A stretch of 59,930 nt of DNA, from the IMG/VR virus record IMGVR_UViG_3300038656_000077, one strand, 5' to 3'. Under the pieces are notes generated by a model. It did no database searches and was not told the DNA's origin. It saw only the letters and a program-made list of their open reading frames with translations. A program made the position numbers and the translations under genes. Every line of letters begins with the position of its first letter. Position 1 is the first letter of the stretch. The DNA is from an uncultured virus (IMG/VR IMGVR_UViG_3300038656_000077) (Duplodnaviria; Heunggongvirae; Uroviricota; Caudoviricetes). Below are positions 10,217 through 59,719 of the stretch, in pieces.

Positions 10217-10534
10217 ATGAGATTACAAAGACCACCAAAGCAAAAAAGAGGATACATTCTAGTAAAACTTCTAGATGAAGAAATACAGAAAACAAAGTCA
10301 GGTATTTATATGCCTACTGAAATAACAGAAAACTCTTTTTTCAGAAAAGCTGAGGTCGTGACTGTAGGTGAAAACAGTAAAGACTATGAAATGCAAACTA
10401 AAGAAGGGGATATAATTTTAGTTAAGAAGTCTTTGGCACAGATGTCAGACTTAACTTTGACTGTAGACGACATACCCCATTATATAATCAGAGAAGAACA
10501 AGGGTTTTACGGATGGCCGCAGGACGAACAGTAG
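10217..10534 (+). CDS. groES: GroES-like co-chaperonin
   Basis: KTKSGIYMP, AEVVTVG, KEGDIIL. Confidence 0.85.
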   Translation: MRLQRPPKQKRGYILVKLLDEEIQKTKSGIYMPTEITENSFFRKAEVVTVGENSKDYEMQTKEGDIILVKKSLAQMSDLTLTVDDIPHYIIREEQGFYGWPQDEQ

Positions 10535-11013
10535 AATGGACACATAAGGGTAAAAAAGTTTCAACTCTGGATGACATACCTGAAGGAGTTGAACACTTTG
10601 TTTATCTTATAACAGACATTAACGGAAGGAAATACGTAGGTAAGAAACAGATAATGTCTACCCGTAAAGTTGAGATTTCAGAGAAAGATTATAGGAAATT
10701 AAAAAAAGAAGGGGAAGCCGTTACCAAAACCAAAAACAAAGCTAAAAGTAAGAAAGGTAATATTGTATGGCGATTTAAAAAAATAGTAGTTAAGGGTAAT
10801 AAATGGGAAGGCTACACAGGATCTTGCATACCGCTCAATAAAGAAATTAAAAAAGGTATGAGTTACAAAAAAGAAATATTATATTTTTGTAGAACAAAGA
10901 AGCAAGCTACATACTTTGAATTAAAAGAACAGTTTACAAGAGGTGTAATAGAAAACGACCTTTATTGGAATAAAAACATAATGAATAAATTCTTTAAAAA
11001 AGATCTGCCATAA
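10513..11013 (+). CDS. GIY-YIG-like endonuclease
   Basis: FVYLIT...KYVGKK, YTGS, KEIL, E...N motifs. Confidence 0.7.
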   Translation: MAAGRTVEWTHKGKKVSTLDDIPEGVEHFVYLITDINGRKYVGKKQIMSTRKVEISEKDYRKLKKEGEAVTKTKNKAKSKKGNIVWRFKKIVVKGNKWEGYTGSCIPLNKEIKKGMSYKKEILYFCRTKKQATYFELKEQFTRGVIENDLYWNKNIMNKFFKKDLP

Positions 11014-27210: not shown

Positions 27211-28035
27211 ATGGATTTTCAAACATTAGGAGATTGGTGCAAATGGTTAGAGAAAAACTTTTCTAACGAACAAATGATACCTACATTACCTGTTATTATC
27301 AGATTAGATGGTAATAACTTTCACAATTGGACAAAAGGATTAGAAAGACCTTTTGATAAAAAACTAACCGAATTAATGACTGAAACTACAAAGTTTTTAG
27401 TTAAAGAAACAAATGCAGTTATTGGTTACACGCAAAGCGATGAAATTACTTTGATTCTTTATTCAAGTGATAGGAAAAGGGCTATTTATAATGCTGGTAA
27501 AAAGCAAAAAATAGTTTCTAAACTTACTGCAAAATGTGTTAACTTTTTTAATGAAAAGAGAAAAGAATTATTACCCACACACGACAAAGTAGCTGTGTTT
27601 GATTGTAGAATTTACCAAACACCGACATTACACGATGCTTGTGTACAATTATTGTGGCGTGAAAATGATGCTACAAAAAATAGCGTTTCGATGTTAGCTC
27701 AAAGTTTATTCTCACACAAGCAACTTCAAAAGTTAAACGGTAGTGAAATGCAAGATAAAATGATGATTGAAAAACAAGTCAATTGGAACGATTTAGAAAC
27801 AAAACTAAAACGTGGAACTTATGTTAAACGTTTAAAAACATCCAAACCTTTTTCTACAAATGAATTGAAAGATTTACCACCAATGCATCAAGCACATAAA
27901 AATCCAAATTTAACAATTGAAAGGTCAACTATTAAAGAAATTGAATATCCTGTTTTTAGCAAAATTGTAAACAAAGAAGATGTTATATTTTTTGGTGCTG
28001 AACCGATTTTGAATGTTTATACCGAAGTCGTTTAA
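27211..28035 (+). CDS. thg1: tRNA(His) guanylyltransferase Thg1-like protein
   Basis: IIRLDGNNFH, YTQSDEITL, FDCR, WRENDATKNS. Confidence 0.92.
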   Translation: MDFQTLGDWCKWLEKNFSNEQMIPTLPVIIRLDGNNFHNWTKGLERPFDKKLTELMTETTKFLVKETNAVIGYTQSDEITLILYSSDRKRAIYNAGKKQKIVSKLTAKCVNFFNEKRKELLPTHDKVAVFDCRIYQTPTLHDACVQLLWRENDATKNSVSMLAQSLFSHKQLQKLNGSEMQDKMMIEKQVNWNDLETKLKRGTYVKRLKTSKPFSTNELKDLPPMHQAHKNPNLTIERSTIKEIEYPVFSKIVNKEDVIFFGAEPILNVYTEVV

Positions 28036-28169
28036 AATGGCAGGTAACAGGCAATATTAAGCGAGATGTAAAAGTCTCGCCTTTTTTATAAAACATAAAA
28101 TTTTAACAAATATTTAAGAAAAATAACTAAAAAACAATTGCATCTTTGTATAACAAAAAAATAGAAATT

Positions 28170-28640
28170 ATGAGAAACCCGCTGAACAAACAAGTAACAG
28201 ATTCAAGAGACTTATTAGAATTTAAAGAAGAGCTTGAACAAGAAATTTTAGATACCTATATTGAGTTTGCAAAAGACCATAACGAATTTAAAGATGAGGA
28301 AACAGAAGATTTAAAGATTCCTGGTAGCTTCGATGAGGTCGAGATTTTTGAGGAGGACACCTTTTTAATTTTTGGGTATTTAATCGAAGAGTATGAAGAT
28401 TTAAAAGACTTCATTGAGGAGTTGGAGACTTATTCAAGTGATTTTCAATATGGGGTAGCAATAATCCACGAGAGTTATTTTGAAGACTATTGTCAAGAGT
28501 TTGTTGAAGATTGTGGACTTTTGCCAAGTGATTTGCCAGCTTTCATTGAAAATAATATTAATTGGCGAGATGTAGCTTACGATATGCGTTATGGTTATGC
28601 AGAATTAGAATTTGATGGAAAAACCTATTTGATAAGATAA
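28170..28640 (+). CDS. ArdA-like acidic antirestriction protein
   Basis: Very acidic; LPAFIENNINWRDVAYDM resembles the ArdA C-terminal domain. Confidence 0.6.
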   Translation: MRNPLNKQVTDSRDLLEFKEELEQEILDTYIEFAKDHNEFKDEETEDLKIPGSFDEVEIFEEDTFLIFGYLIEEYEDLKDFIEELETYSSDFQYGVAIIHESYFEDYCQEFVEDCGLLPSDLPAFIENNINWRDVAYDMRYGYAELEFDGKTYLIR

Positions 28641-29060
28641 TAAAGCTTTAAGCTATTATTAACAATAACTTACTTAGATTAATCGTATCTTTGTACAAGC
28701 GGAAGTTGAAAAGCTATTAGAGTAGGTAAATTAAAAAACGAAATATTATGATAACGATTAAAAAATATAAGTGCAATCACCAATTTAGAACATATTGGAA
28801 TGTACACGCAAAAAGAGAACAATACGACTTTAGAATAGCTGAATGCACTTGCATTTATATTTTTGGTTTATTGATATGGAAAAGTTTAAAAAGCATTGAG
28901 AACTAAGCATTATTTATATACCGTGTTACCCGCCGTTTTCTTATCGAAATGTTAAATTTTAGGTAAATACCAAAAATAAATTGACTTTAGCTTGCGAGTA
29001 ATTAGGTAAATGCCTAAATTAGTACTGTAGCAATAAAGCTATAACAAATACTTAGAAATT

Positions 29061-29639
29061 ATGAAAAATACAGCGACTATTAGTATTAACAATGACAACG
29101 TAAGAATCAATGGTGAAAACATTAATATGCATGAAACTGGACTTGACGGGCTATATTCTATCGAAGAAATAAAAGAATATATCCTTGAAGAAGATGGAAT
29201 TGTTGAAGTTGAAGAAATTGAGTTTGTTGATGGAAATGACGATACGGTAAATGCATTATTAAAGTTGAAGGAATTAGCCGAAAATGGGGATATCTATCAC
29301 GATGTATATACAGGAGAAGAATGGTTAGGTATTAATGGAGAAGGAAAAATATTATTAGGTCGTGGCGATACAACCGATTGGGGGAAATATTCAGGCGAAC
29401 CAGAAAATACAGAAGAATGGTTAAATGAAAAAAACTGGAAGCCACTACAAGAAGATATTAAGATAGAAACAGTTTCAATCCCAGAAGATGGACAACCAGG
29501 ATTAGTTGACAAACTATGTTTTGTACAAAAAAACACCGAAGTTTCAAGCCCTGTCAATGATTGCGTTTCTTGGATGGATGAATTTGAAGTGTTAAATAAT
29601 AATGGCGAGTACTTTGCAGTAGCAAAAAGATTATACTAA
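29061..29639 (+). CDS. Acidic hypothetical protein (cassette-borne)
   Basis: 192 aa within cassette 28925-29837. Confidence 0.7.
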   Translation: MKNTATISINNDNVRINGENINMHETGLDGLYSIEEIKEYILEEDGIVEVEEIEFVDGNDDTVNALLKLKELAENGDIYHDVYTGEEWLGINGEGKILLGRGDTTDWGKYSGEPENTEEWLNEKNWKPLQEDIKIETVSIPEDGQPGLVDKLCFVQKNTEVSSPVNDCVSWMDEFEVLNNNGEYFAVAKRLY

Positions 29640-29836
29640 TGCATAATCTTAATAATTTCAAAATGACCATCCAAGAAGTAAAAAAAGAACTCGGATTATC
29701 TGACAAAGATATAGCCGAGTTCTTCCAATACGCAAGCGGTAATAGTTATGCTACAAGCGCACGAAAAGAAAAGTTAGACCACGGAATTATAAAAATGTTT
29801 CTAAAGTGTAAGGATCATTTCTCAAATGGCGGGTAA
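29639..29836 (+). CDS. Small HTH protein (cassette-borne)
   Basis: IQEVKKELGLSDKDIAEFF; stop codon lies in GGTAAC. Confidence 0.65.
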   Translation: MHNLNNFKMTIQEVKKELGLSDKDIAEFFQYASGNSYATSARKEKLDHGIIKMFLKCKDHFSNGG

Positions 29837-29867
29837 CAACGGATATGAATAACAAAACAAAACAAAA

Positions 29868-30229
29868 ATGAAATTAATACAACCAAGAGGTGTACAAGAC
29901 ATAGCAGACTACCTAAAAGAAAACAAATTAAAACTTGAAGATGTAGAAAAATACAAAAGTTTAGAATACCAATATAAAAAATGTGAAGGTGGTGGTAGTT
30001 ATGTTAGAGCATCATTTTATATTATAGAAGGAAATTTTTATACTAATTGGGACTGTTAAAACTGTAAATTATGATAACTAATGTTTGGGATGAAATACGA
30101 TTAATTAGGTGTATAAAGAAAGGTCTTTGGTTAAAAACAAAACATAGAGGGTGGATAAGACCTGCATTATATAATGAATATCTATCATACGCCTTTGATT
30201 GTAAAATTTTAAAGGAAGAACGATGGTAG
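29868..30229 (+). CDS. Two small ORFs (29868-30059, 30071-30229) inside an attC-like hairpin interior
   Basis: Between arms 29835-29852 and 30236-30253. Confidence 0.55.
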
Positions 30230-30408
30230 TGTTTTTATTATTTATATACCGTTCGATGTATAAGGAACGGCTTGTAAATATCTTAAATTATATCTAACAG
30301 AAGTCTTAAAATCCTAGTTAAGTAGGTGCGGTTAGTCGACTGTTAGGGGGCTTTTAAAATAAATATATTGAAAAAGGCGGTCTATAAACATTTAAAAAAT
30401 TTAACATT

Positions 30409-31660
30409 ATGAATTATCAAACAAAAGTCGTACTTAGAAAAACATTGTACGAGTTTAGAGGTGCAGAAAGAGCCAAACAAGATGAAATGGTATCTTTAAT
30501 CGAGCAAAGAATAAAACAGCATCAAAACGCTTTAAAAACTACTGGTACAGGTTATGCGGATCATTTTGTACAAGCAGGAAAAATATTTTTGAGAATAGCT
30601 AAAAAAGATTAACACTTCATTAACAAAACAAAACAATTATATTCATTATCTTTGTGTCAACCGCAATAGAAACAACCAAATTAGTAAAATTATGATAAAC
30701 ACAGGAACAATACACAGCATCAACGGAATAGAAGTGAACATGGGAGGAGGTATGGCTAGAGGTTTATATAACCTATCAAGAGATAATCATATAACTCTTT
30801 GGTTTGACGAAGGAACTTTAGACCATCTTATGAGTCTATCGGACGAGAAGTTAGAACAGGAATTTTTAAAAATGGTGAGGTAAGATGAAATTTGAAAACA
30901 CACTTGTAGATTTAGGGGCCACAAAAAATAGAGATATATTTGGCTTAGAAGAGTACATTATTCAAACCAAAACAGGGCTATTGTATGTTACTCTTATGAA
31001 CGATAACCATCTTTGCTGTAATTTTATCGGTAGCGAGAAAGAGGCTAAAAAGAAATTCGGTCACTGGAAGCAAAACAGGATAGTGGAAACAGAACAAGAC
31101 ATTATCAACCACATAGAAAGATTAAAGCTATAATGGATAAAGCAATACAAATAAGAAAGGAAGGGGAGTATACATACGAATCTCTACAAAACAAATCTTT
31201 ATTTAGAGTTGGCAGAGGAGACAAAAAGACAAAATGGGTTGCTTTTAAGTTTTTGCAGGGTATATTCTTAGCCGACACAGATAAGTTTAAACAGATTATT
31301 AACAGTAAGTTACAACATGAAGCATTATCTTTGTGTTCTAAAAAATAGAAGATGGACAGGAAAAAATTAAAGAAGGCAGATTTTATAAGGTTTAGCGATA
31401 ATCCGAGCCTCAACTTTAGTATAATTAAAATGCTAAAGCAGAATTGGTCGGATATATTAAAAAATCCAGATGTGATGAATACAGACAGTTTCACTAAAGA
31501 AGAATTAGAGTCGTTAGCTTGTATGAACATGGAGATATTTACAAAGACTGCCGTAGCAACAGATAATAGAATACATTACAAAGAAGATCCTCTAACAATA
31601 GTTTTAGCTAGTATGTTAGGTAAAGTAAAGTCAGAACTTAAAAGCTTGATGAGAGAGTAA
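30409..31660 (+). CDS. Five small hypothetical genes (30409-30612, 30692-30883, 30885-31133, 31133-31348, 31352-31660)
   Basis: Coupled + strand ORFs. Confidence 0.6.
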
Positions 31661-31678
31661 CAGAAAATTAAAAATAGA

Positions 31679-31927
31679 ATGAGTAAAGAAGCAGAAGAGT
31701 TTTTTAAACAAAAGACAATAGAAAACGCTGAAACACCAAGGATGAAAAAATTTCTTGCATTGGTGAATAGAGAAGCAGAAGGAAAGATTTTGCAAGAATA
31801 TGCCGAACAGCAATTAATTTTACATGGTCTTGTGGAAGCGTTTCACTGCATGGCTGCTAATAGCCAGGATGGTTTTACTGAAGAAAAATGTAAAGAACAG
31901 TGTAAAATGTGTAAAAGTGGGCAATGA
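31679..31927 (+). CDS. Cassette-type small protein with Cys tail
   Basis: QQLILHGLV over a degenerate arm. Confidence 0.6.
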   Translation: MSKEAEEFFKQKTIENAETPRMKKFLALVNREAEGKILQEYAEQQLILHGLVEAFHCMAANSQDGFTEEKCKEQCKMCKSGQ

Positions 31928-32100
31928 CATGTTTGCTAACAACGTTTTGTATATGAAAAGTAGCGTATAGACAAGTAGAAATTAACGAGTAAAACAGAAG
32001 TAATATAAACAAGCAAAGACCAACGTATTAAGCACTTAAAAGCTATTTTTTATATATGTTGTTGTGTGTATTGAGGTGGTTTAGCAAAAACTTAAATAAA

Positions 32101-32400
32101 ATGGGATATAGAGGAAAATTAATGGTAGAACATACAGGAATAAAACTACCAAAAGAGATTGCAGAAAAGTATAAAGACGATTACCACATAGAACAGCTTG
32201 AAAATGGTGATTATGTAGTAAACATATCTTCTAAGTTTGAGACAAAAGGACATTGGGATATATTACTAGACCTTAAAGAATTATTAAAAGATAATAATTT
32301 TGGCATTTACGGTGTAGTTTTATGGGAAGATGGAAGGATTGATAGACATAATTTTTCTACTGGTGAGCAAGAAACATTTAAACCAAAAGACGATTACTAG
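32101..32400 (+). CDS. Cassette-borne hypothetical protein
   Basis: Bounded by GTTGTGTGTATTG / CATTACATACAAC. Confidence 0.7.
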   Translation: MGYRGKLMVEHTGIKLPKEIAEKYKDDYHIEQLENGDYVVNISSKFETKGHWDILLDLKELLKDNNFGIYGVVLWEDGRIDRHNFSTGEQETFKPKDDY

Positions 32401-32550
32401 CATTACATACAACGTTTTGTATATGATTTGTAGGCATAGACAAGCAAGAACTTTGGACTAAAAACTTACTTAAATAGATAAAAAAAGAACATTAAAATAT
32501 TAATCAACAACCTATAAATTATATACGTTGTTATAAAACGTTTTTTAGGG

Positions 32551-33146
32551 ATGGCAAAAAAAGAGATTACAAAATGGGAACAGGTTTATCAATTACCTAT
32601 AAAATATGATGATATGAAATACTGTTGGTCAAAAAATGGTACAATGACACTAATGTTTGATGAAGTAGTATCTGAGGAAGATAGACAGATGATTGTAAAA
32701 GCTTTAAATGGTGAAACAGAATTAAAGATGGAAGGACTGACTTTTGATGGATGCGATTTCTTACTTGACGGAACTTACATTTTTTGTGTGCGTGGTTGGG
32801 GTAACTTAACTGGAATTGGTGCATTAAACTTACCCGAAGAAAAAGCCTTGAAGATACAAGACGAATTTATTAACCACGTGCATAGAGCGTTGGCAAAAAA
32901 TACAGAAACTAAGCAATGCACTATACCAAGTGTAGTGCGTTTTCTAACGATGAACTTGAAAACATGATGAATACTTGGTTTGACCACTACCAAGCAAACG
33001 GTGAAAGCCATTATAGTGACACTCCTGATTTTAGGATTAGAGAAATATATTGGGATAAGGTGGTTGATAGAGTTATTGAAGATGTAAATACTGAAATGAC
33101 AGATAAAGAAGTAGAACAATTTTGTGATAGACTTGCTGATTTGTAG
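32551..33146 (+). pseudogene. Cassette ORF split by an inferred 7-bp deletion at the GTT site
   Basis: ORFs 32551-32967 and 32916-33146 fuse if GTTGTGT is restored at ~32931. Confidence 0.55.
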
Positions 33147-33198
33147 CATTACACACAACGCTCGTGGGTATGGCATTTTTATAAAACGGAGCGTAAAA

Positions 33199-33231
33199 CC
33201 CACACATCTTTTTAGTGTGTGGGTAGTTCAC
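33199..33231 (+). mobile_element. IS200/IS605-family right-end fragment
   Basis: Hairpin plus GGGTAGTTCAC; identical to the reverse complement of 55189-55221. Confidence 0.75.
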
Positions 33232-33253
33232 ATAGTATTAGGCACAGTACGGT

Positions 33254-33610
33254 ATGGAAAGTTACAAATTTAAAATTATAGATATGGGAAATTTACCTAA
33301 AGAAGAAAAACCAAAGATAAAAAAATACGAAATATGGATTGGATTTGTAGGTGCTTGGGGACAAGGCGACCACGATTCTGTAAAGCCACAAAAACTTGGT
33401 GAAGTGGAGGCAACTTCTTTTAAAATAGCCTGTTGTATATACGAACACGAAAACGCTGTAAAGCACTTGAAAGAAAGAATGAAACGAGGTGACACTTATA
33501 TTGAAGATGCTTGGTTTGGACATTGGGGATATAACCCTAAAGACAATAGTACAATGCACTTGGGTAGATATTTTGAAACTGAAAAAGATGCTTGGACGAC
33601 CTTTAAGTAG
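33254..33610 (+). CDS. Cassette-borne hypothetical protein
   Basis: 118 aa, ends just before the AAC arm at 33621. Confidence 0.7.
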   Translation: MESYKFKIIDMGNLPKEEKPKIKKYEIWIGFVGAWGQGDHDSVKPQKLGEVEATSFKIACCIYEHENAVKHLKERMKRGDTYIEDAWFGHWGYNPKDNSTMHLGRYFETEKDAWTTFK

Positions 33611-33677
33611 TATTGTCCACAACGTACCGCAGATATGACAAGTTGCGGGATTAAATACTAACTAAAATAAATAAACA

Positions 33678-33986
33678 ATGAATTTACAAGAAGAATTTTA
33701 TTACAGAATAGATAATGATAATGGTTACGACAACAAAAAATTAGGTGACGATTTAATAGCGATTGCAAAAAATCACTTATCTAAGCAATTTGTTATGTCT
33801 GGTGTATTTGTTATATCTGGTGTTAGGCTTTCGTTGCCTGATGAAGATGAAATAAACTCAATGCAATTAGAAATGGATTGCCCTACACCAAATGAAGAAG
33901 AATATACTACATCTGGTTTTAAAAGCGGTGTTAGATGGTTAAAAAACACTATTGAAAGACAGATGTTAAAAGGCAATGAAGCCTAA
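33678..33986 (+). CDS. Cassette ORF spanning the GTT arm
   Basis: Stop in CCTAAC. Confidence 0.65.
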   Translation: MNLQEEFYYRIDNDNGYDNKKLGDDLIAIAKNHLSKQFVMSGVFVISGVRLSLPDEDEINSMQLEMDCPTPNEEEYTTSGFKSGVRWLKNTIERQMLKGNEA

Positions 33987-34011
33987 CGAATAGTATAAAA
34001 ATAGTAGCGAT

Positions 34012-34209
34012 ATGGAAGATAAAATATTTGATATAGTAACAGACCTAATTAGGGATGATATAAGTAAAAATGAAGCAATAGATAAGCTATTGATTTTATA
34101 CAGTGTTAGCAAACGTCATTTAATCGAAGAAATTTTAGATGATGTAAACAGTTGTCACGGAGAATATGCTAGCGAAAAAGTACAAGCTTATCTTGATGAT
34201 GGTTGTTAA
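34012..34209 (+). CDS. Cassette ORF spanning the GTT arm
   Basis: Stop in GTTAAC. Confidence 0.65.
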   Translation: MEDKIFDIVTDLIRDDISKNEAIDKLLILYSVSKRHLIEEILDDVNSCHGEYASEKVQAYLDDGC

Positions 34210-34356
34210 CGGTTTGAATATGAAACGTTTTAATACAGAAGTTATTTAAATGTAATAAAGTTACAACATTTATATGTATTTTTATTTGGAATGCTGAATA
34301 AAATGTTTTATATTTGGAATGCTGAATAAAATGTTTTATATTTTTTGTTATAAATA

Positions 34357-34432
34357 GGTGGGTTCGTCTATCTGGATAGGACAACTAGCTAACAGCACAT
34401 GTAGAAATGAGGTTCGAGACCCATACCCACCA
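34357..34432 (+). tRNA. Degenerate tRNA-like gene forming a whole cassette
   Basis: Acceptor GGTGGGT/ACCCACC-A, D arm GTC..GAC with TGG, T loop GGTTCGAG; anticodon arm irregular. Confidence 0.6.
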
Positions 34433-34579
34433 CTTATTTATAACGTTTAGTATAATAAACGGCTTGCAAATAAGATGCTACCCTCACGAATGCGGATAGC
34501 ATATAAATAATAACAAAACACCGATAAAGCAATAAACCGCTTTTATTTTTATACGGTGTTAGCAAATGTAATTTACGAT

Positions 34580-34918
34580 ATGAATTTACCTTATGTTCTA
34601 GCTCACTTCATAGGCGACTTTCTGTTACAAAATGATTGGCAAGCAGTTGGAAAGAAGAAAAGTAGTTTAATATGCACTATGCACGTTTTGCTCTATATGA
34701 CACCATTTTTACTAACTGAATTAAGTTGGTTACAATTAGGATTAATAGCTGTACAACATTGGTTACAAGACCGAAGCTCATTTGTAGGATGGTGGTGTAA
34801 AACTATGGGTTCGTTTCAAACTGAATTAAAGCAAAACGGTTTGCCTTGGGGTCATTTTATAGTAGACCAAGTAATGCACTTTATTTGGATGTGGTTAGTA
34901 GTAAATTATTGTTGCTAA
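34580..34918 (+). CDS. DUF3307-like membrane protein (cassette)
   Basis: AHFIGDFLLQ...H...HWLQD...DQVMH; stop in GCTAAC. Confidence 0.8.
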   Translation: MNLPYVLAHFIGDFLLQNDWQAVGKKKSSLICTMHVLLYMTPFLLTELSWLQLGLIAVQHWLQDRSSFVGWWCKTMGSFQTELKQNGLPWGHFIVDQVMHFIWMWLVVNYCC

Positions 34919-34956
34919 CGCATTGTATATGAATAGTTAATTTAAAAATAATAGAT

Positions 34957-35205
34957 ATGGAAGAAGTATTAATAAATTTTTTAATAAGCCTAAACGATAA
35001 GGGCTTAATAAATAACCACGATTTTGATTACGAAAAAGTTGCACGGGCTTTTCCAAATAAAGCCGAGAATAAGCAATTAATTATAGCCAATGTTGTAGGG
35101 CAAAGCGAACAGTTAAAATGCGTTTGGTGTGGTAATGACGAAAGCAAGGATATACTTCCTCAACTTTGTAATGAGTGTTTTAAAAAAGGATGTAAAGCAT
35201 TTTAA
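34957..35205 (+). CDS. Cassette ORF spanning the GTT arm, Zn-finger tail
   Basis: KQLIIANVVGQSEQL, CxxC..CxxC. Confidence 0.65.
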   Translation: MEEVLINFLISLNDKGLINNHDFDYEKVARAFPNKAENKQLIIANVVGQSEQLKCVWCGNDESKDILPQLCNECFKKGCKAF

Positions 35206-35335
35206 TTACCTACAACGGCTATTGTATGAATAGTAGCCGTAAAAAGCGAGAAAAATTGAATTATAAACTAAATTAATTAATACACAATAGCCTTTAAAAA
35301 GACCACATAACAGGCTATTATTTATACAAATTATT

Positions 35336-35485
35336 ATGGAAGTAGAAAAGCAATGGATAGTAAATGTTTATGAACTATTATTACTCTTAAAAGACGGAAC
35401 TTATAGAATTGGTAAAAGCTCTAATCTTTATGGATTTGACTTAATAGATAAAGAAAAGGCGTTGGCTCTTATTAATGCCACATAA
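35336..35485 (+). CDS. 49-aa cassette ORF
   Basis: Stop in CATAAC. Confidence 0.5.
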   Translation: MEVEKQWIVNVYELLLLLKDGTYRIGKSSNLYGFDLIDKEKALALINAT

Positions 35486-35535
35486 CGTTCGACAGATATG
35501 GCGTGTTGCCTCAACAACTTAAATTAATACACGAA

Positions 35536-35829
35536 ATGAATTTAATTAAGCGATTATTTAGCAAAAAGAAAAATAAGCAATGCGATATATCTGGTGTTGT
35601 AGGTAGTTCTTCTCCTAAAAAAGAACAGACTTATATGCATGTTGAAGCAGGTACAAACAGAACTTATTTTACTAACGAACCACCACATATAAAAAATGGT
35701 GTGAAGAACAAATCCAAAGAAGTAAAAACCGTTATAAATGATGACTTACCTACAACGAATGGTGCTATGGTGCGTTACTTTTCGCAATGCATTATAGCAC
35801 GTGTTGTACACTGTATGGCGGTTAAATAG
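35536..35829 (+). CDS. Cassette ORF spanning the GTT arm (reads on through the next site)
   Basis: KQCDISGVVGSS. Confidence 0.5.
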   Translation: MNLIKRLFSKKKNKQCDISGVVGSSSPKKEQTYMHVEAGTNRTYFTNEPPHIKNGVKNKSKEVKTVINDDLPTTNGAMVRYFSQCIIARVVHCMAVK

Positions 35830-35916
35830 AAATGAACTTTAAAATGAAAAACGAAATGAGTAATAATATTTTTTTGAGCGGTGGCAAATGCCCCAAAGGG
35901 CAAATTACATACAGTT

Positions 35917-36637
35917 ATGAAACCATTAGGGAATAAGAATTACGGAAGCATACCACATTTATCTAATAGTAAATTAGATTCTGGTGACCATTTTGTAAAC
36001 CTTTGTAAACCATGGACAAGAAAGGATATTGACCGAAAAGAAACGAGATAAGCAAGATGAAATATTTGTGTTTGAAAAATATGATGGATCAAATGTTGGA
36101 ATTGGTAAAATAGATAATAAAATAATTGCTGTAACTCGAAGCGGTTATGTGGCAAATACAAGCCCTTATAAACAACATCATTTATTTAGTGATTAGGTTT
36201 ATAAAAATATAATGACTTGGATGGACTTATTGAAAAATGGTGAAAGAATTACAGGTGAGTGGTTAGCACAAGCACACGGAATTAAATATAATATTCACGA
36301 AAAGTTACAACCTATTGTTTTCTTTGACCACTTTAACGAAAATAACAAAAGAAGTAATTTTGATGTATTAGATAATTTTTATAAAAAATACGAAATACAA
36401 TTACCAAGGCTTTTACATAGAGGTGATGCAAAAAGTGTTGAAGATTTAAAAACTGAACTTAATAAAAAAACCTACGGAATAACACCTGAAGGAAAACCCG
36501 AAGGAATGGTTTATAGAGTTGAACGAAAAGGCAAAGTAGATTTTCTTGCTAAATGGGTAAGAAGTGATTTTGAAGCAGGTAAATATATTATTGATAAAGA
36601 GGAACACGAATTGATTTGGAACACGCAAACTAGCTAA
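35917..36637 (+). pseudogene. RNA ligase (Rnl2-like nucleotidyltransferase), disrupted
   Basis: MKPLGNKNYGSIPHL...FEKYDGSNVGI...GEWL...PEGMVYRVE...AKWV; frameshift(s) near 36000-36035 and TAG at ~36194. Confidence 0.75.
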
Positions 36638-36769
36638 AAAAGGAAGGAAAAAAAGAGTGTATTATGGACAAATACAAAAAGACCTTTGAATTAAGCACAA
36701 ACTAAGCACTTGCAGGTAACGGAATGCGTGTATGAGTAGTGCTTGGAATAATAAATAAACTTAACAAAA

Positions 36770-37003
36770 ATGGAAGAAATAATAAAATACCTTGAAGAAA
36801 TTAAAAAACATCAAATGCAAACAGTACAGTTGGCAAGAAGTACAGAAGTTTACAAACTTGCAGATAAAGCACTTGCCAAAGCATTACTTATACACGGTGT
36901 TGTAAAATCGTTTTATTGCCAATGCGATGAGCCTTATGAACAGATATTGCCACATAGCAACACACCCTACTGTGGGGAATGTTCAAAAAACATTAAGCAA
37001 TAA
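36770..37003 (+). CDS. Cassette ORF spanning the GTT arm, Zn-finger tail
   Basis: KALLIHGVVKSF, CxC..CxxC. Confidence 0.65.
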   Translation: MEEIIKYLEEIKKHQMQTVQLARSTEVYKLADKALAKALLIHGVVKSFYCQCDEPYEQILPHSNTPYCGECSKNIKQ

Positions 37004-37112
37004 TATGTTTTACAACAACGGATATGAATAACAAAACAAAACAGTAATACAAGTAATAACATTTTGATCCGTGCATAGCTTTGTAAGCTCTAACATCAAA
37101 TTTGCAGAAACA

Positions 37113-37150
37113 AAAAACCCTCGTTATTGATTTAACGGGGGTTTATTTTT
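37113..37150. terminator. Bidirectional intrinsic terminator closing cassette array I
   Basis: A-run, CCCTCGTT/AACGGGGG, T-run. Confidence 0.6.
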
Positions 37151-37312
37151 TTATTAGCAGATAAACTATTAGTTTACTTCAGACATTATAGTTATAGGTA
37201 AATAGCTTAAATTATCACTCTTAGAATCGTTAGGTCGAGCTTCAAGTGCTATCGTTTGGTTCTCACTAATGAGCACCTCAAAGAAGCTTACTACTTTTAA
37301 GCGTAAGAGGAA

Positions 37313-37881
37313 TTGAGGTACAAATATACTAGAGTTGGGGCATCAACTCATGGAGGTAAACGCAGAGATAAGTGTAAATTAAAAATTGCAAAGCTTTATC
37401 AAAAGATAACTAATCAAAGAGATTTCTTTTTACATAATTGCTCAACACAATTAGTCAACAACTTTGATTGCATATTTATAGAAGATTTAGGGGTTAAAGA
37501 TATGTTAGAAAGCAAGTTAATGTCAAAACAGATTTCCGATGCCAGTTGGAGTAAGTTTGTTAATATGTTGACTTACAAAGCTGATTGGTACGGTAAAACG
37601 GTTCACAAAATTGACCGTTATTATGCTTCTTCAAAGACTTGTTCTTGTTGTGGACACATCAACAAAGAACTAACCCTAAAAGACCGTGAATGGACTTGTA
37701 ACGGTTGTGGAACTTTGTTAAACAGAGATGTAAATGCAGCCATAAATATTAAATCGTTTGCTTTAAAAAATTATTTGAGTGGGGAACACACTCTTAAAAA
37801 TCAGGACGAACTGTTGACGTTAGTCAAAGTGCTGACTCCTGAAGCCCATCCCATCGCCTCTGGCGTGGGTGGGTAGTTCAC
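37313..37881 (+). mobile_element. tnpB: 5'-truncated tnpB (IS200/IS605 family) with omega-RNA / right end
   Basis: IEDL (RuvC-II), SSKTCSCCG..CNGCG, RDVNAAINI (RuvC-III); RuvC-I and N-terminus absent; ends GGGTAGTTCAC. Confidence 0.85.
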
Positions 37882-38005
37882 AACTATAGTAATTAAAAAC
37901 TTCGTAAAACAATACACTTTAACACAAAATTTAAAACCCCCTCCACAACAAAGCAAAGGGGGTAAAACAAACATAAACACTTAACTAGATGCGATTCTAT
38001 CAACT

Positions 38006-40809: not shown

Positions 40810-41091
40810 TTACTCTACTAAAATCTTCCTAGAGGGTTCCGAATCTTTTCTTGGTAGTTTTACAATAAGTATACCTGCGTCATACTCCGCAGTTATGTTT
40901 TTGAGTTCTACTTGATTGGTTAACTTAAATCTGTCTTCGTAGCCTCCTACTGAAACCACAAGATTACTACCTTGTAGTTCGATAGTGAAGTCTTCTTTCT
41001 TTTTCCCAGGCGAAACGATGTTCACAGTTTGTACTCCGTCAACGGTTTCGCTGTAAGTGTAAAAGTAATATTTTTCTAAATCTTTAAACAT
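40810..41091 (-). CDS. Small heat-shock protein (Hsp20)
   Basis: PGKKKEDFTIEL, ITAEYDAGILIVKLP. Confidence 0.85.
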   Translation of the reverse strand: MFKDLEKYYFYTYSETVDGVQTVNIVSPGKKKEDFTIELQGSNLVVSVGGYEDRFKLTNQVELKNITAEYDAGILIVKLPRKDSEPSRKILVE

Positions 41092-41168
41092 AGTTTTATC
41101 TTTTTTTGTTTGGTTACATTTAACCAAATGCCATGCCTAAACAATAGTATGACATTCTGTCAAAAATT

Positions 41169-42095
41169 CTATTGGTAAGGAAGCATTGGAACTTTATAGT
41201 GTCTGTAACTATCGTAGTTTTCTAACCTGACAGCATCTAAAGGAAGGCCGTCCCAAAATGCTTTGTAGTTCTTAATATCGCCAAATAGATAATCAGAAAA
41301 AACTAGGTTCTCCAACTTATGAATGTGTTTAGGTTTATTTAAAATTACATCTCGTGCATCGTCTATACTGTTACCATATAAATGTACATTATGTAAGTCT
41401 CCTGTAAGAGATAGCATTTTATGACCTGTAACAACCTCTAAAACCTTACCCAAATAGAAATAATACATTATATTCATAGGTAGCCCTAAAAACACATCAG
41501 AACTCCTCATAACCCAACTTAAATGGAAACCATAGCCTGTTTTACTACCGTACTCTACTTTCTCCATATCTACATTAAAGCCGTAGTGACATGGGGCGAG
41601 AGTCATTTGCTTTCTTTCCCTAGGATTCCAAATGTTAACCACAATGGAGCTATCCATAGGTCTTTCAATCATTTTACGCATAATATCCTCCATCTGGTCA
41701 AAAGTGCCACCAAACTTCCTATATTGATAAGAGTACACCTTGCCCATATCAAATAGTTCAAAATCTATATCACTGTGGTTATCTTTTATATCTTCAATAG
41801 GGATACCAGTTTTGTAACCCCTGAAATTATACCAATCCTTAGTCCAGAAGTTCACACCTGCTTCCCAATACTTTCTTATGTCTGTTTCACCTCGCATGAA
41901 AAGGGAAAGCTCTTTCATAGCCATCATAGGAAACGACTTCTTAAGGGAAATCGCAGGAACAGTATCAATGGGAACTTGAAACTGATATTTAGGCACATTG
42001 AGTCTTCTAACATTAACCCTATTAGGATCGTTATGGAATTTACCTGTTTTTAAAATGTATCTTAATAAATCTCTGTATTGTACGTCTACTGTCAT
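41169..42095 (-). CDS. thyA: Thymidylate synthase
   Basis: LAPCH, RSSDVFLGLPMN, NVHLY. Confidence 0.9.
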   Translation of the reverse strand: MTVDVQYRDLLRYILKTGKFHNDPNRVNVRRLNVPKYQFQVPIDTVPAISLKKSFPMMAMKELSLFMRGETDIRKYWEAGVNFWTKDWYNFRGYKTGIPIEDIKDNHSDIDFELFDMGKVYSYQYRKFGGTFDQMEDIMRKMIERPMDSSIVVNIWNPRERKQMTLAPCHYGFNVDMEKVEYGSKTGYGFHLSWVMRSSDVFLGLPMNIMYYFYLGKVLEVVTGHKMLSLTGDLHNVHLYGNSIDDARDVILNKPKHIHKLENLVFSDYLFGDIKNYKAFWDGLPLDAVRLENYDSYRHYKVPMLPYQ

Positions 42096-54204: not shown

Positions 54205-54580
54205 AATGCTAACACTGGTTATAGTGCATTTGCGAAAAGCAAACGACACCATACCCTTAACGTTAGGCTTTAATATTTTTGCCAATCATTGTTATCTAAG
54301 TCATAATCTGCCAACATCATACCATTACCTGTTGGGTTGTGACTTTCTATTACGACCTTTGTTTTTTCTACACCTCTTACAATACCTGTGTATCTACCAA
54401 AAGGGCTGTCCATATAAACCTTGTCAAAAAGACTAAAGCTAACAAAGTGTATATCACATTGCTTTTTATCGCTTAATTTCTTACCTTTTTCCATTTTATT
54501 TAGTTTATTAATTATTCAAAGTTTCTGTTTATTTACACGCAACTACTCATACACAATTACGTTACCTACAAGTGCTAAGT
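54205..54580 (-). mobile_element. Cassette cluster II (attC-like sites 54211-54264, 54441-54563)
   Basis: AAC..GTT hairpins; ORF 54270-54494 spans one arm. Confidence 0.7.
54270..54494 (-). CDS. Cassette ORF spanning the GTT arm
   Basis: KQCDIHFVSFSL. Confidence 0.65.
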   Translation of the reverse strand: MEKGKKLSDKKQCDIHFVSFSLFDKVYMDSPFGRYTGIVRGVEKTKVVIESHNPTGNGMMLADYDLDNNDWQKY

Positions 54581-59004: not shown

Positions 59005-59104
59005 ATTAAATTTCGTTTTTTAATTTACCGCACCAGATGGCTAACACGGTATAAAAGCCATTGAAAATAACGGCTCTTATACTAATCGTTAGGCACAATT
59101 TGAA

Positions 59105-59395: not shown

Positions 59396-59538
59396 AATAT
59401 AAGTGTGCCTAACAATGGCTAAAGTTAATAGCCTCAATAGGTCTTGTTATAGTTTAATGATTAGTGATTAACGGCTACTAACCTTAGCCTAAACGTTAGG
59501 CACAATTAAAAAAGATGCCTAACAATGTATAAACCCAA

Positions 59539-59685
59539 TTAATTTTTAAGGTCTTTTGCTACTTCAATAGCTGTTTCTAATCCAATTTTTACACCTCTCC
59601 AATAAGTGTCGTTATCAACTTCAATAGGGTTTTCGCTAATTACTTTTTGCAATTGCTCTGTTAAGTTTTTTATTAATCGTTCCAT
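59539..59685 (-). CDS. 48-aa ORF wholly inside an attC-like interior
   Basis: MERLIKNL...KDLKN*. Confidence 0.55.
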   Translation of the reverse strand: MERLIKNLTEQLQKVISENPIEVDNDTYWRGVKIGLETAIEVAKDLKN

Positions 59686-59719
59686 ATTCTTAAAAATTTA
59701 CTGTGTTTATATTCGTTCG

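What the first reader, a model, noticed from the sequence alone, without database searches (positions are those of the whole stretch)
31937..36905. attC-like sites appear inverted relative to transcription
Seen: arm mismatches are mostly G on the left facing T on the right on the coding strand (TATATGAAAAGTAGC/GCTATTTTTTATATA; TATATGATTTGTAGG/CCTATAAATTATATA; CGTGTATGAGTAGTGCTT/AAGCATTACTTATACACG; TGTATGAATAGTAGCC/GGCTATTATTTATACA). The coding strand therefore folds with G:T pairs and the other strand with C:A mismatches. The spacer next to AAC is also longer (5-6 nt) than the one next to GTT (2-4 nt). The same polarity holds for the minus-strand clusters. Established: in classical integrons the non-coding bottom strand is the better-folding, recombinogenic one. 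Inference: here the sense strand is recombinogenic and the crossover is at AA|C, so each cassette carries its hairpin interior as a 5' leader. That would explain why ORFs cross GTT but almost never AAC.
Basis: partly seen in the sequence, partly recalled or inferred. Interest (0 to 1): 0.78.

Follow-up and report, generated by a model that had tools for sequence, protein, structure and literature searches.

The report
Mirror-image integron-like cassettes in a phage
A flavobacterial-type phage keeps many small genes as swappable cassettes separated by folding DNA hairpins, and each hairpin sits in front of its gene and folds best on the coding strand, the reverse of bacterial integrons.

Summary
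In 17 window sites, scored symmetrically, stems hold 218 Watson-Crick pairs, 30 G-T/T-G wobbles on the coding strand and 2 A-C types. The wobbles sit at two fixed stem positions. The arms pair better on the coding strand in 16 of 17 sites, on both gene strands.

The sites are built like attC..AAC, about 6 nt, GTATATGA-type arm, variable interior, TTATATAC-type arm, about 3 nt, GTT.. Stem covariation is strong.

They delimit mobile cassettes. The 8 nt after GTT of one site pair with the 8 nt before AAC of the next site (6.08 of 8), not with its own (4.12, random 4.10).

Polarity is inverted. The window's cassette 31941-32413 recurs elsewhere with both junctions at AAC. It never keeps its downstream hairpin (0 of 9) and keeps the whole upstream hairpin in 2 of 10 loci. 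GTT-side exchanges also occur.

Which strand is cut is inferred, not shown. The window has no recombinase; relatives encode a Xer-like one at the array's end. This scan found the same system before on other DNA. I found no paper describing it.

The parts
31941..32063 (+). Hairpin site 1. AAC 31941-31943, arms 31952-31966/32043-32057, GTTGTT 58-63. The 77-nt interior is non-coding.
   Evidence: The whole site is ~75% identical in Polaribacter phage Danklef. It is kept with its downstream ORF in L214 and L216.
31941..32413 (+). Cassette A: hairpin 1, the R' box, ORF 32101-32400 and the 3' R'' box ending in AAC.
   Evidence: It occurs in 11 metagenome loci. Homology ends at AAC(G) in 7 of 9, and starts exactly at AAC 31941 in L214 and L216. 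Its depth in four metagenome runs is 268-486, against about 40-70 for the neighbouring backbone.
32411..32532 (+). Hairpin site 2. Arms 32419-32434/32511-32526.
   Evidence: Metagenome contigs start at 32411 in 2 of 4 runs.
32415..33160 (+). Cassette block B, present in the window and absent from a near-identical relative.
   Evidence: L215 runs from window 32414 straight to 33138-33188, then is 100% identical over 33226-33894. The block is flanked by a 23-nt direct repeat that ends in AACG.
32772..32891 (+). AAC..GTT hairpin lying inside ORF 32551-32967.
   Evidence: Scan score 29. Contigs of all 4 runs end at 32886. L219 joins the sequence up to 32899 to the ORF A body at 32081.
32905..32940 (+). 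3' arm plus R' box inside coding sequence. It lacks 7 nt that the population carries.
   Evidence: Contigs carry GTGTTGT (3 runs) or GTGTAGT (1 run) inserted behind 32929. By my frame arithmetic the insertion puts ORFs 32551-32967 and 32916-33146 in one frame.
33157..33215 (+). Degenerate site: an AACG box followed by a short local hairpin.
   Evidence: In L215 it follows cassette A directly.
33621..33826 (+). Hairpin site. ORF 33678-33986 starts in the interior and reads through the 3' arm and GTT. The 3' arm is partly duplicated.
   Evidence: Contigs of all 4 runs end at 33624.
33985..34107 (+). Hairpin site. ORF 34012-34209 starts inside it.
   Evidence: (I18). Loose ends lie at 33982 (before) and 34109 (behind).
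34208..34349 (+). Hairpin site. Its R' decamer pairs 10 of 10 with the R'' decamer of the next site.
34442..34560 (+). Hairpin site with a weak stem (9 pairs found).
34917..35094 (+). Hairpin site. ORF 34957-35205 starts inside it and crosses GTT.
   Evidence: In 4 runs contigs diverge right after AACG at 34920, with at least two different continuations.
35214..35332 (+). Hairpin site whose GTT has become ATT.
   Evidence: (I7). The whole site is ~85% identical in Cellulophaga phage phi19:3, where GTT is intact and both flanking genes differ.
35484..35598 (+). Hairpin site. ORF 35536-35829 starts inside it.
   Evidence: Contigs diverge right after AACG at 35487 in 3 runs, with two different continuations.
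35754..35805 (+). Short hairpin site with a 5-nt loop, lying inside the 3' end of ORF 35536-35829.
   Evidence: The fold tool predicts the hairpin at -10.6 (sense) and -9.1 (antisense) kcal/mol.
36718..36901 (+). Hairpin site. ORF 36770-37003 starts inside it.
   Evidence: (I3).
37014..37045 (+). Degenerate left half-site at the end of the array. It is a direct repeat of 29835-29866.
   Evidence: Contigs start at 37014/37015 in 3 runs.
59521..59717 (-). Hairpin site on the minus strand, which is the coding strand there.
   Evidence: L209 carries this hairpin joined to the ORF of cassette A.
59411..59497 (-). Hairpin site flanked by GCCTAAC / GTTAGGC boxes.
   Evidence: The fold tool gives -20.1 kcal/mol (z -5.9) on the sense strand and -17.3 on the antisense strand.
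59043..59090 (-). Short hairpin site.
   Evidence: In one search the antisense strand is slightly the more stable (-9.1 versus -8.4 kcal/mol).
54441..54563 (-). Hairpin site. ORF 54494-54270 starts inside it.
   Evidence: In L216, which is 98% identical to window 55305-54522, cassette A follows this AAC instead.
54211..54264 (-). Short hairpin site.

Best explanation
The window is part of a lytic-looking phage genome of a Flavobacteriia-type host. Its runs of small genes are integron-like cassette arrays.

Site design. Each site has a 5' box ending in AAC, about 6 unpaired nt, a stem whose first 8 pairs are conserved and carry a fixed G-T at stem positions 7 and 12, a free interior of 5 to more than 300 nt, the 3' arm, about 3 unpaired nt, and a box starting with GTT.

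Shown here:
- The stem covaries.
- The variable bases just after GTT pair with those just before the next AAC, across the gene. This is what a circular cassette cut inside its own folded site would leave behind.
- Cassettes end at the AAC box.
- When a hairpin stays with a gene, it is the gene downstream of it.

Inferred: the coding strand folds, marked and stabilised by the two G-T pairs. A tyrosine recombinase cuts it at the AAC box of its 5' arm, as IntI cuts 5'-AAC-3' in classical attC. Each cassette therefore reads hairpin, GTT box, gene, AAC box, which is the mirror image of a classical cassette. This lets a gene start inside the hairpin and read through GTT.

The likely enzyme is a compact Xer-like recombinase. 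Relatives encode it just downstream of their arrays. This window lacks it, so it would have to act in trans or have been lost.
For: Context: PHROGs and Pfam hits to terminase, DNA polymerase, helicases and other phage genes.

Structure:
- In 70 aligned elements 92.5% of cells pair, against 76.1% in shuffles (0 of 500 as high).
- 236 cells change on both sides, against 87.5 in shuffles.
- The covariation score is 0.363 against 0.089, and at most 0.10 when partners are slid.

Wobbles and folding.

Cassette signature:
- Across 217 sites, the outer R' pairs with the next R'' at 6.08 of 8, and 53% reach at least 7 of 8. The own-site value is 4.12 and random is 4.10 (p 1e-19).
- In the window alone, 7 neighbouring pairs score 8-10 of 10.

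Polarity:
- L128/L130/L196 and L140/L180 share hairpin plus gene from AACG to the next AACG and nothing outside.
- 0 of 149 element pairs share upstream homology; 15 of 149 share downstream homology.
- Cassette A sits in other neighbourhoods with AAC junctions, including the window's own minus-strand site in a 98%-identical relative. L215 differs from the window by one whole block.
- Population contigs branch at AACG.

Recombinase: a 245-263 aa Xer-like gene lies downstream of and co-oriented with the array in Ingeline, in Danklef (remnant), in L124 and in 4 of 70 viral-contig loci.

The rule that IntI cuts 5'-AAC-3' of the folded strand comes from PMC5027507 (passages read).
Against: - No experiment or read-level junction shows which strand is exchanged.
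- As single-stranded DNA the asymmetry is small: about 2.4 kcal/mol for the arms. Whole-site folds favour the other strand in 4 of 17 and 2 of 6. For long sites the minimum-energy DNA fold lacks the arm-arm stem. The bias is three times larger with RNA parameters, so selection on the transcript cannot be excluded.
- The extra unpaired bases lie on the same arm as AAC. On classical sites that marks the non-reactive strand (PMC5027507).
- GTT-side junctions occur: L162 versus window 54261-54474, Ingeline versus window 33814-33995, the loose end at 34109, and contigs ending at 32886.
- Cassette A keeps its whole upstream hairpin in only 2 of 7 other upstream contexts, with 1 more partial.
- The block missing in L215 is flanked by a 23-nt direct repeat, so homology-driven loss would explain that case equally well.
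- No tyrosine recombinase is in the window.
Confidence: 0.68

Rival explanations
1. Two-slot design without a single reactive strand. The AAC box and the GTT box are both crossover points, for instance because either folded strand can be cut at its own AAC. The hairpin interior and the gene body are then independent modules, and the apparent 5' leader is only the commoner linkage.
For: - GTT-side boundaries are precise in several comparisons.
- Unitigs break at 32886 and 36893 as well as at 32411, 33624 and 37015.
- ORF bodies of cassette A follow at least 4 different hairpins.
- In Ingeline a whole ORF lies inside a hairpin.
- Genes that cross the 3' arm at 33621, 33985, 34917, 35484, 35754 and 36718, and at the internal arm at 32905, read GTT as an in-frame codon, by my reading of the sequence.
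Against: The linkage is asymmetric. The hairpin is never kept with the upstream gene: 0 of 149 pairs and 0 of 9 loci. All informative 3' cassette ends lie at AAC. The fixed G-T pairs favour one strand.
Confidence: 0.17
2. RNA-level element. The hairpins act in the polycistronic mRNA, in processing, stability or translation control. G-U pairs are tolerated because the transcript folds, and module exchange happens by homologous recombination at the conserved motifs, as proposed for the PeSL elements of T4-type phages.
For: All wobbles are on the transcribed sense. The strand bias is far larger with RNA parameters, -22.3 against -15.4. Start codons lie inside the loops. PeSL papers exist (PMC2839356 and PMC4122927; search listing and the start of the abstracts only).
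Against: - Wobbles sit at two fixed positions and are always G on the 5' arm. They are not scattered as simple tolerance would give.
- Junctions fall on a 4-nt box with unrelated sequence on one side, which is too short for homology-driven exchange.
- The variable R'/R'' bases pair across each gene.
- A recombinase gene lies at the array end in relatives.
Confidence: 0.08
3. Ordinary attC sites of a cluster without integrase (CALIN), with classical polarity. The non-coding strand is recombined at G|TT by a host IntI, and each hairpin belongs to the gene upstream of it.
For: The order AAC..GTT after each stop codon looks like a classical array. The boxes at 59.0-59.5 kb read GCCTAAC/GTTAGGC. 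Stop codons often overlap TAAC. Phage CALINs are published, including one in Polaribacter phage P12002L (PMC9892861).
Against: The downstream hairpin is never shared with the gene (0 of 9; 0 of 149). Homology starts at AAC upstream of the hairpin. The non-coding strand carries two fixed A-C mismatches. The one P12002L site that has this family's layout was the only one of six tested that gave no verified IntI1 junction (PMC9892861, section 3.4 and the supplement primer table).
Confidence: 0.04
4. Miniature transposon or IS200/IS605-type hairpin ends, mobilised by a single-strand transposase.
For: The ~125-nt elements have inverted ends and conserved interiors and recur between unrelated genes in many phage contigs. 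A truncated TnpB lies at 37313-37873.
Against: No Y1 transposase was found. TnpB is only a C-terminal fragment. Interiors range from 5 to more than 300 nt and can hold genes. The outer boxes pair across the neighbouring gene rather than within the element.
Confidence: 0.03

Closest known systems
Classical integrons (IntI, attI, attC cassettes; folded bottom-strand recombination)
   Same: Both have folded imperfect hairpin sites with R and L boxes, AAC/GTT triplets, an unpaired spacer and a variable terminal part. In both, the cassette ends pair with each other across the gene. Both form arrays of small co-oriented genes. In both, one strand is marked by a G-T and stability bias; for classical sites this is reported in PMC5027507 (passages read).
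   Different: - The hairpin is upstream of its gene, not downstream, and the junction is at the AAC box on the coding strand rather than at G|TT.
- The asymmetry is a longer spacer on the AAC arm. There are no bulged bases in the L box, but two fixed G-T pairs.
- No IntI is present. Relatives carry a 245-263 aa Xer-like enzyme that scores 91.9 bits against a cut-off of 265 for the integron-integrase model. It lies downstream of the array and is co-oriented with it.
- Genes start inside the site.
CALINs and attC sites reported in phage genomes (Qi et al. 2023, PMC9892861; section 3.4, passages and supplement primer table read)
   Same: That paper reports attC-like clusters without an integrase in virulent phages. 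One is in Polaribacter phage P12002L, which carries six sites of this family on its coding strand at 38.0-40.9 kb and shares site 1 of the window.
   Different: The paper treats the sites as classical attC, tests them with IntI1, and notes only 'divergent directions' in P12002L. Its family-type site (attC1) gave no verified junction. It does not mention sense-strand bias, AAC-side junctions or a Xer-like partner: a term search of its main text found 0 hits for Xer, Flavobacter and Bacteroid.
rAID-1 clusters of Bacteroidales (Ross et al., bioRxiv 10.1101/471110; passages read)
   Same: Both are in the phylum Bacteroidota. Both combine a XerD-family tyrosine recombinase with a co-directional array of small low-GC genes. 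The authors describe the repetitive intergenic sequences as 'reminiscent of integrons'.
   Different: rAID-1 is chromosomal, its recombinase lies 5' of the array, and its cargo is immunity genes. The text I read describes no hairpin structure, strand or crossover. I did not test homology between the recombinases or between the repeats.
PeSL mobile regulatory cassettes of T4-type phages (PMC2839356, PMC4122927; search listing and start of abstracts only)
   Same: Short conserved stem-loop motifs flank small variable genes in hyperplastic phage regions and mark module boundaries.
   Different: As I recall them, PeSLs are promoter-terminator motifs exchanged by homology. Here the junction box is 4 nt, the stems covary, the outer boxes pair across each gene, and a site-specific recombinase is linked in relatives.
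CTX-phage attP(+) forked hairpin used by XerC/XerD (recalled, not read here)
   Same: A folded single DNA strand mimics a Xer core site and is exchanged on one strand only, then resolved by replication.
   Different: That is a single integration site of a filamentous phage. It is not an array of gene cassettes in a tailed phage.

Membership tests
Classical integron | An IntI-type integrase with the integron-specific extra domain next to the array | tested here: not met
   None of the 84 window ORFs scanned hit Phage_integrase, and tblastn with the Ingeline enzyme found nothing in the window. The relatives' enzyme is 263 aa and scores 91.9 bits on TIGR02249 against a cut-off of 265. Its best match is a XerA-type model at 128.7 bits against a cut-off of 220.
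Classical integron | attC architecture: R''-L''...L'-R' with AAC/GTT, an unpaired spacer and a variable terminal structure | tested here: met
   AAC/GTT is paired in 96.7% of cells, the stem covaries, and interiors range from 5 to more than 300 nt.
Classical integron | The outer R' at the start of a cassette is complementary to the R'' at its end (circular-cassette signature) | tested here: met
   The next-site value is 6.08 of 8, the own-site value 4.12 and random 4.10. The window alone gives 7 neighbouring pairs at 8-10 of 10.
Classical integron | The cassette is the gene plus its downstream attC, with the junction at G|TT and the non-coding strand reactive | tested here: not met
   The downstream hairpin is shared in 0 of 9 loci and upstream flanks are shared in 0 of 149 pairs. 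Boundaries lie at AACG. Strand chemistry itself cannot be tested with these tools.
Classical integron | Extrahelical bases lie on the arm opposite the AAC triplet of the reactive strand | tested here: not met
   There are no bulges in the L stem. The extra unpaired bases are in the spacer on the same arm as AAC of the better-folding strand. The rule is from PMC5027507.
Classical integron | The site is recombined by an integron integrase | not testable with these tools
   Published assay: the family-type site P12002L_attC1 was the only one of six phage sites without a verified IntI1 junction (PMC9892861, section 3.4; the supplement primer shows its layout).
CALIN (attC cluster lacking integrase) | Two or more sites called by the IntegronFinder or HattCI attC models, with no integrase nearby | not testable with these tools
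   Those models are not available here. Rfam at gathering threshold gave 0 matches in the window. By architecture alone the window would qualify.
rAID-1 | A XerD-like recombinase more than 44% identical to the B. fragilis protein, lying 5' of a co-directional low-GC array | tested here: not met
   The window has no recombinase. In relatives it lies 3' of the array. Identity to the B. fragilis protein was not tested.
PeSL | A conserved early promoter plus terminator stem-loop, with exchange by homology between copies | tested here: inconclusive
   Junctions on a 4-nt box with unrelated flanks and pairing across genes do not fit homology-driven exchange. I did not test promoter content.
IS200/IS605 derivatives (PATE/REP-like) | Separate subterminal hairpins at each end, and a Y1 transposase in the genome or in relatives | tested here: not met
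   Only a TnpB C-terminal fragment is present, at 37313-37873. The two ends pair with each other, and the outer boxes pair across genes.

The most novel reading that the evidence does not exclude
Tailed phages of Bacteroidota carry a mirror-image integron. A compact Xer-type recombinase exchanges the coding strand of folded sites that are marked by two fixed G-T pairs. Each cassette brings its own upstream hairpin. Because the GTT foot can also recombine and is read in frame, the same sites shuffle N-terminal and C-terminal protein halves as well as whole genes.
Probability: 0.4. Interest if true: 0.88.

Novelty: new variant of a known kind. Interest (0 to 1): 0.74.

Why it matters
Integrons are the textbook case of recombination on a folded single DNA strand. 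Their strict use of the non-coding strand is thought to be what keeps cassettes readable from one promoter.

This phage system has the same site logic but opposite polarity, fixed G-T marks instead of bulged bases, and a simpler Xer-type enzyme. It would show that this chemistry evolved, or was re-tuned, more than once.

It would also explain how lytic marine phages trade their many small orphan genes. And it offers a compact, strand-specific recombination system to test. Two phages that carry such sites with a linked recombinase gene, Ingeline (intact gene) and Danklef (remnant only), were isolated on cultured hosts.

Tried and rejected
- **tRNA and Rfam scans.** No tRNA and no Rfam family at gathering threshold in the window.
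- **Whole genome.** None is held for this window, so I could not look for a recombinase outside the 60 kb.
- **Close relatives of the phage.** A viral-contig search with the 521-aa protein found none. DNA polymerase tblastn gave at most 36% identity. A viral-contig search with ORF 33254-33607 found none.
- **First motif scan.** It returned mostly chance matches. About 20 of the 118 loci were true sites.
- **Danklef isolates.** Danklef_5 differs from Danklef_1 outside the array; gene coordinates are offset by a constant 991 nt. It gave no cassette polymorphism. Danklef_2 to _4 were not fetched.
- **Promoter reading.** I considered the 3' arm as a promoter (Bacteroidetes -7 motif, recalled). I dropped it because ORFs read through the arm. 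No promoter scan was run.
- **Double-stranded Xer/dif-like paired sites (pdif-module idea, recalled).** Dropped because the variable stem bases covary between the two arms, and the two spacers differ in length (6 versus 3).
- **Sequencing runs.** No RNA holder is listed, and all four runs laid are contigs only. Neither expression nor circular-junction reads could be examined. Joints with sides of 22-30 letters were not used as evidence, because they may be assembly-graph links at repeats.
- **The joint 34225->35244 (side 45, 3 runs).** It joins the left arm of site 34208 to a phi19:3-like allele of hairpin 35214. The exact crossover cannot be placed, so it was not counted.
- **Literature.** Searches for a prior description of this polarity found none.

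Full report
**Context.** The window looks like a lytic phage genome of a Flavobacteriia-type host.
- It encodes a large terminase, helicases, a RecA/UvsX-like protein, PhoH, Thg1, thymidylate synthase, DNA polymerase and DnaB.
- Nucleotide matches are only patchy, to Flavobacterium, Cellulophaga and Polaribacter phages. The DNA polymerase is at most 36% identical to any sequenced phage.
- From 14 to 37 kb runs a long series of small + strand ORFs. From 38 kb the genes run on the - strand.
- No tyrosine recombinase is among the 84 ORFs scanned or in a tblastn of the window.
- No whole genome is held for the window.

**The observation.**
- I aligned 17 sites with a scoring that treats G-T and A-C alike. 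The stems hold 218 Watson-Crick pairs, 27 G-T, 3 T-G, 2 A-C/C-A and 9 other mismatches. One site was mis-anchored in that call.
- The wobbles sit at stem positions 7 and 12, with G always on the 5' arm.
- In 71 distinct relatives, position 12, which my pattern did not fix, is G-T in 58 of 60. Elsewhere the variable stem is almost purely Watson-Crick.
- For the arms alone, the coding strand pairs better in 16 of 17 sites: -12.55 versus -10.12 kcal/mol as DNA and -22.3 versus -15.4 as RNA.
- The effect is modest for DNA. Whole-site folds favour the coding strand in 13 of 17 and in 4 of 6 in the fold tool. For the three long sites folded there, the minimum-energy DNA fold does not form the arm-arm stem on either strand.
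- The spacer asymmetry is real: 5-6 nt next to AAC and 0-4 nt next to GTT, with a family consensus of 6 and 3.
- The minus-strand clusters at 59.0-59.7 and 54.2-54.6 kb follow their own coding strand.

**What the sites are.** The layout is that of attC: a box ending in AAC, an unpaired spacer, a stem that begins GTATATGA / TTATATAC, a free interior, a spacer, and a box beginning GTT.
- A strict two-arm pattern found 83 viral-contig stretches whose lengths cluster at 114-121 nt. That gave 72 distinct elements, which fall into sub-families with conserved interiors.
- On 70 aligned elements the stem is paired in 92.5% of cells, against 76.1% in shuffles. There are 236 double-sided changes against 87.5, and slid controls collapse.
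- The same sites occur in Cellulophaga phages Ingeline and phi19:3 and in Polaribacter phages Danklef and P12002L.

**They bound mobile units.** Across 217 sites in 80 locus-strands, the 8 nt after GTT pair with the 8 nt before the AAC of the next site at 6.08 of 8, and 53% reach at least 7 of 8. With their own site's AAC flank they pair at chance level, 4.12 against a random 4.10. In the window alone, seven neighbouring pairs score 8-10 of 10. This is the footprint expected if a circular cassette carries one complete folded site and is opened inside it.

**Which half of the site goes with which gene.**
- Three viral contigs (L128, L130, L196) share a unit that begins exactly at AACG. It runs through the hairpin, in which the ORF starts, then the GTT box and the gene. 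It stops at the next AACG. The sequence is unrelated on both sides, and the next hairpin is different in each contig.
- L140 and L180 show the same. The unit's GTT box is a perfect 9-nt complement of its terminal AAC box.
- Of 149 pairs of elements with homologous hairpins, none shares the 600 nt upstream. Fifteen share sequence starting immediately downstream, though mostly only 24-32 nt.

**The window's own cassette A (31941-32413)** gave 11 usable metagenome loci.
- Homology ends at AAC(G) in 7 of 9 loci. The other two are aberrant joins 4 nt earlier.
- The window's downstream hairpin is shared in 0 of 9.
- Homology begins exactly at AAC 31941, keeping the whole upstream hairpin, in L214 and L216.
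- L216 is 98% identical to window 55305-54522. It carries cassette A at the AAC of the window's minus-strand site 54563. The same cassette therefore sits in two different arrays of close relatives.
- L215 is 100% identical to window 33226-33894 but lacks 32415-33160. A 23-nt direct repeat flanks that block, so homology-driven loss is equally possible there.

**Population data.** In four metagenome runs, all kept as contigs only, several contigs end or branch at the boxes.
- Contigs stop matching right after AACG at 34920 and 35487, with two or more different continuations.
- Contigs join the window 3 nt before AAC at 32408 and 33982.
- Cassette depths are several-fold above the backbone.

**Caveats on polarity.**
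- The hairpin is separable from its gene. The ORF body of cassette A follows other hairpins in 4 of 7 other upstream contexts.
- L162 versus window 54261-54474, and Ingeline gp26 versus window 33814-33995, share only the stretch from the GTT box to the next AAC.
- A loose end lies at 34109, and contigs of all four runs end at 32886, both on GTT sides.
- The junction is resolved only to the box (AC)AACG.
- In classical attC the extra unpaired bases lie opposite the AAC triplet on the reactive strand (PMC5027507, passages read). Here the longer spacer is on the AAC arm of the better-folding strand. That feature therefore does not mirror the classical design.
- The same paper states that IntI cuts 5'-AAC-3' of the folded strand and that top-strand recombination would invert a cassette. 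This is the basis for inferring sense-strand exchange from AAC-side junctions. It remains an analogy.

**Genes and sites.**
- ORFs start inside the hairpin and cross GTT at 6 of 17 sites.
- Only two plausible ORFs cross AAC, at 35754 and 28753.
- Nine upstream ORFs end within -12 to +6 nt of AAC, often using the TAA of TAAC.

**Enzyme.**
- Ingeline gp28 is 263 aa and combines Phage_int_SAM_4 with Phage_integrase. It scores far below the Xer and IntI family cut-offs. It lies about 100 nt downstream of the last site.
- Homologues lie downstream of and co-oriented with the sites in Danklef (a remnant) and in L124. The same holds in 4 of 70 viral-contig loci.
- At the corresponding place the window has a terminator-like hairpin and a TnpB fragment.

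**Literature.**
- PMC9892861 reports CALINs in phages, including P12002L (section 3.4 and other passages read). Its supplement primer table shows that P12002L_attC1 has this family's layout. That site was the one of six tested that gave no verified IntI1 junction.
- The rAID-1 preprint (10.1101/471110, passages read) describes XerD-linked arrays with integron-like repeats in Bacteroidales.
- Searches found no description of sense-strand bias or AAC-side cassettes.
- Earlier notes of this scan describe the same system on other DNA. I formed my reading before seeing them and tested it here independently.

**Verdict.** Strand chemistry and the exclusivity of the AAC crossover remain open.

Noticed in passing
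window 34360-34440 (+): A tRNA-like stretch with a T-arm-like motif lies between the GTT box of site 34208 and the AAC box of site 34442. It would be the only cargo of that cassette. ARAGORN calls no tRNA in the window. T-arm-like repeats also fill the hairpin interiors of L138 and L177.
   Followed up: partly
window 35881-36637 (+): An RNA-ligase-family gene (Pfam RNA_ligase, phrog_38169) is split over three ORFs in the window. It is 80% identical at the DNA level to a gene of Flavobacterium psychrophilum phages. Contigs of all four metagenome runs lack 10 nt at 35992, so the population version may be in a different frame.
   Followed up: partly
window 32929 (+): Metagenome contigs carry 7 extra nt here: GTGTTGT in 3 runs and GTGTAGT in 1. 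The insertion restores a GTT box and, by my frame arithmetic, joins ORFs 32551-32967 and 32916-33146 into one gene.
   Followed up: partly
window 37313-37873 (+): A 187-aa fragment matches the C-terminal part of TnpB (Cas12f1-like TNB domain and the end of OrfB_IS605). It lies just past the end of the array, after a terminator-like hairpin at 37108-37151.
   Followed up: no
window 29835-29866 and 37014-37045 (+): A direct repeat of about 30 nt, made of a degenerate left half-site followed by an A-rich run, brackets the 7.2-kb stretch that holds most of the sites.
   Followed up: no
window 16542, 17465, 18294, 20953, 24373, 25053 (+): In the 14-29 kb part of the small-gene run a different conserved motif, an A-rich run ending ..ACACTATG, sits directly on the start codons. 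Hairpin sites are rare there.
   Followed up: no
window 28000-37900: Contig depth in four metagenome runs varies from about 20-70 on the backbone to 660-925 over 35282-35612. Individual cassettes or hairpins are therefore present in many more genomes of that community than this phage's backbone.
   Followed up: partly
window 10513-11010 (+): A SegE-type GIY-YIG homing endonuclease gene lies between the GroES-like and PhoH-like genes.
   Followed up: no
L121 (Danklef_1) 40972-41491: tblastn with the Ingeline recombinase matches 41045-41443 on the + strand (35.6% over 135 aa). This overlaps a CDS annotated on the opposite strand and a 43-aa CDS annotated 'integrase', and is followed by an HNH endonuclease gene. 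The recombinase gene looks truncated or mis-annotated.
   Followed up: partly
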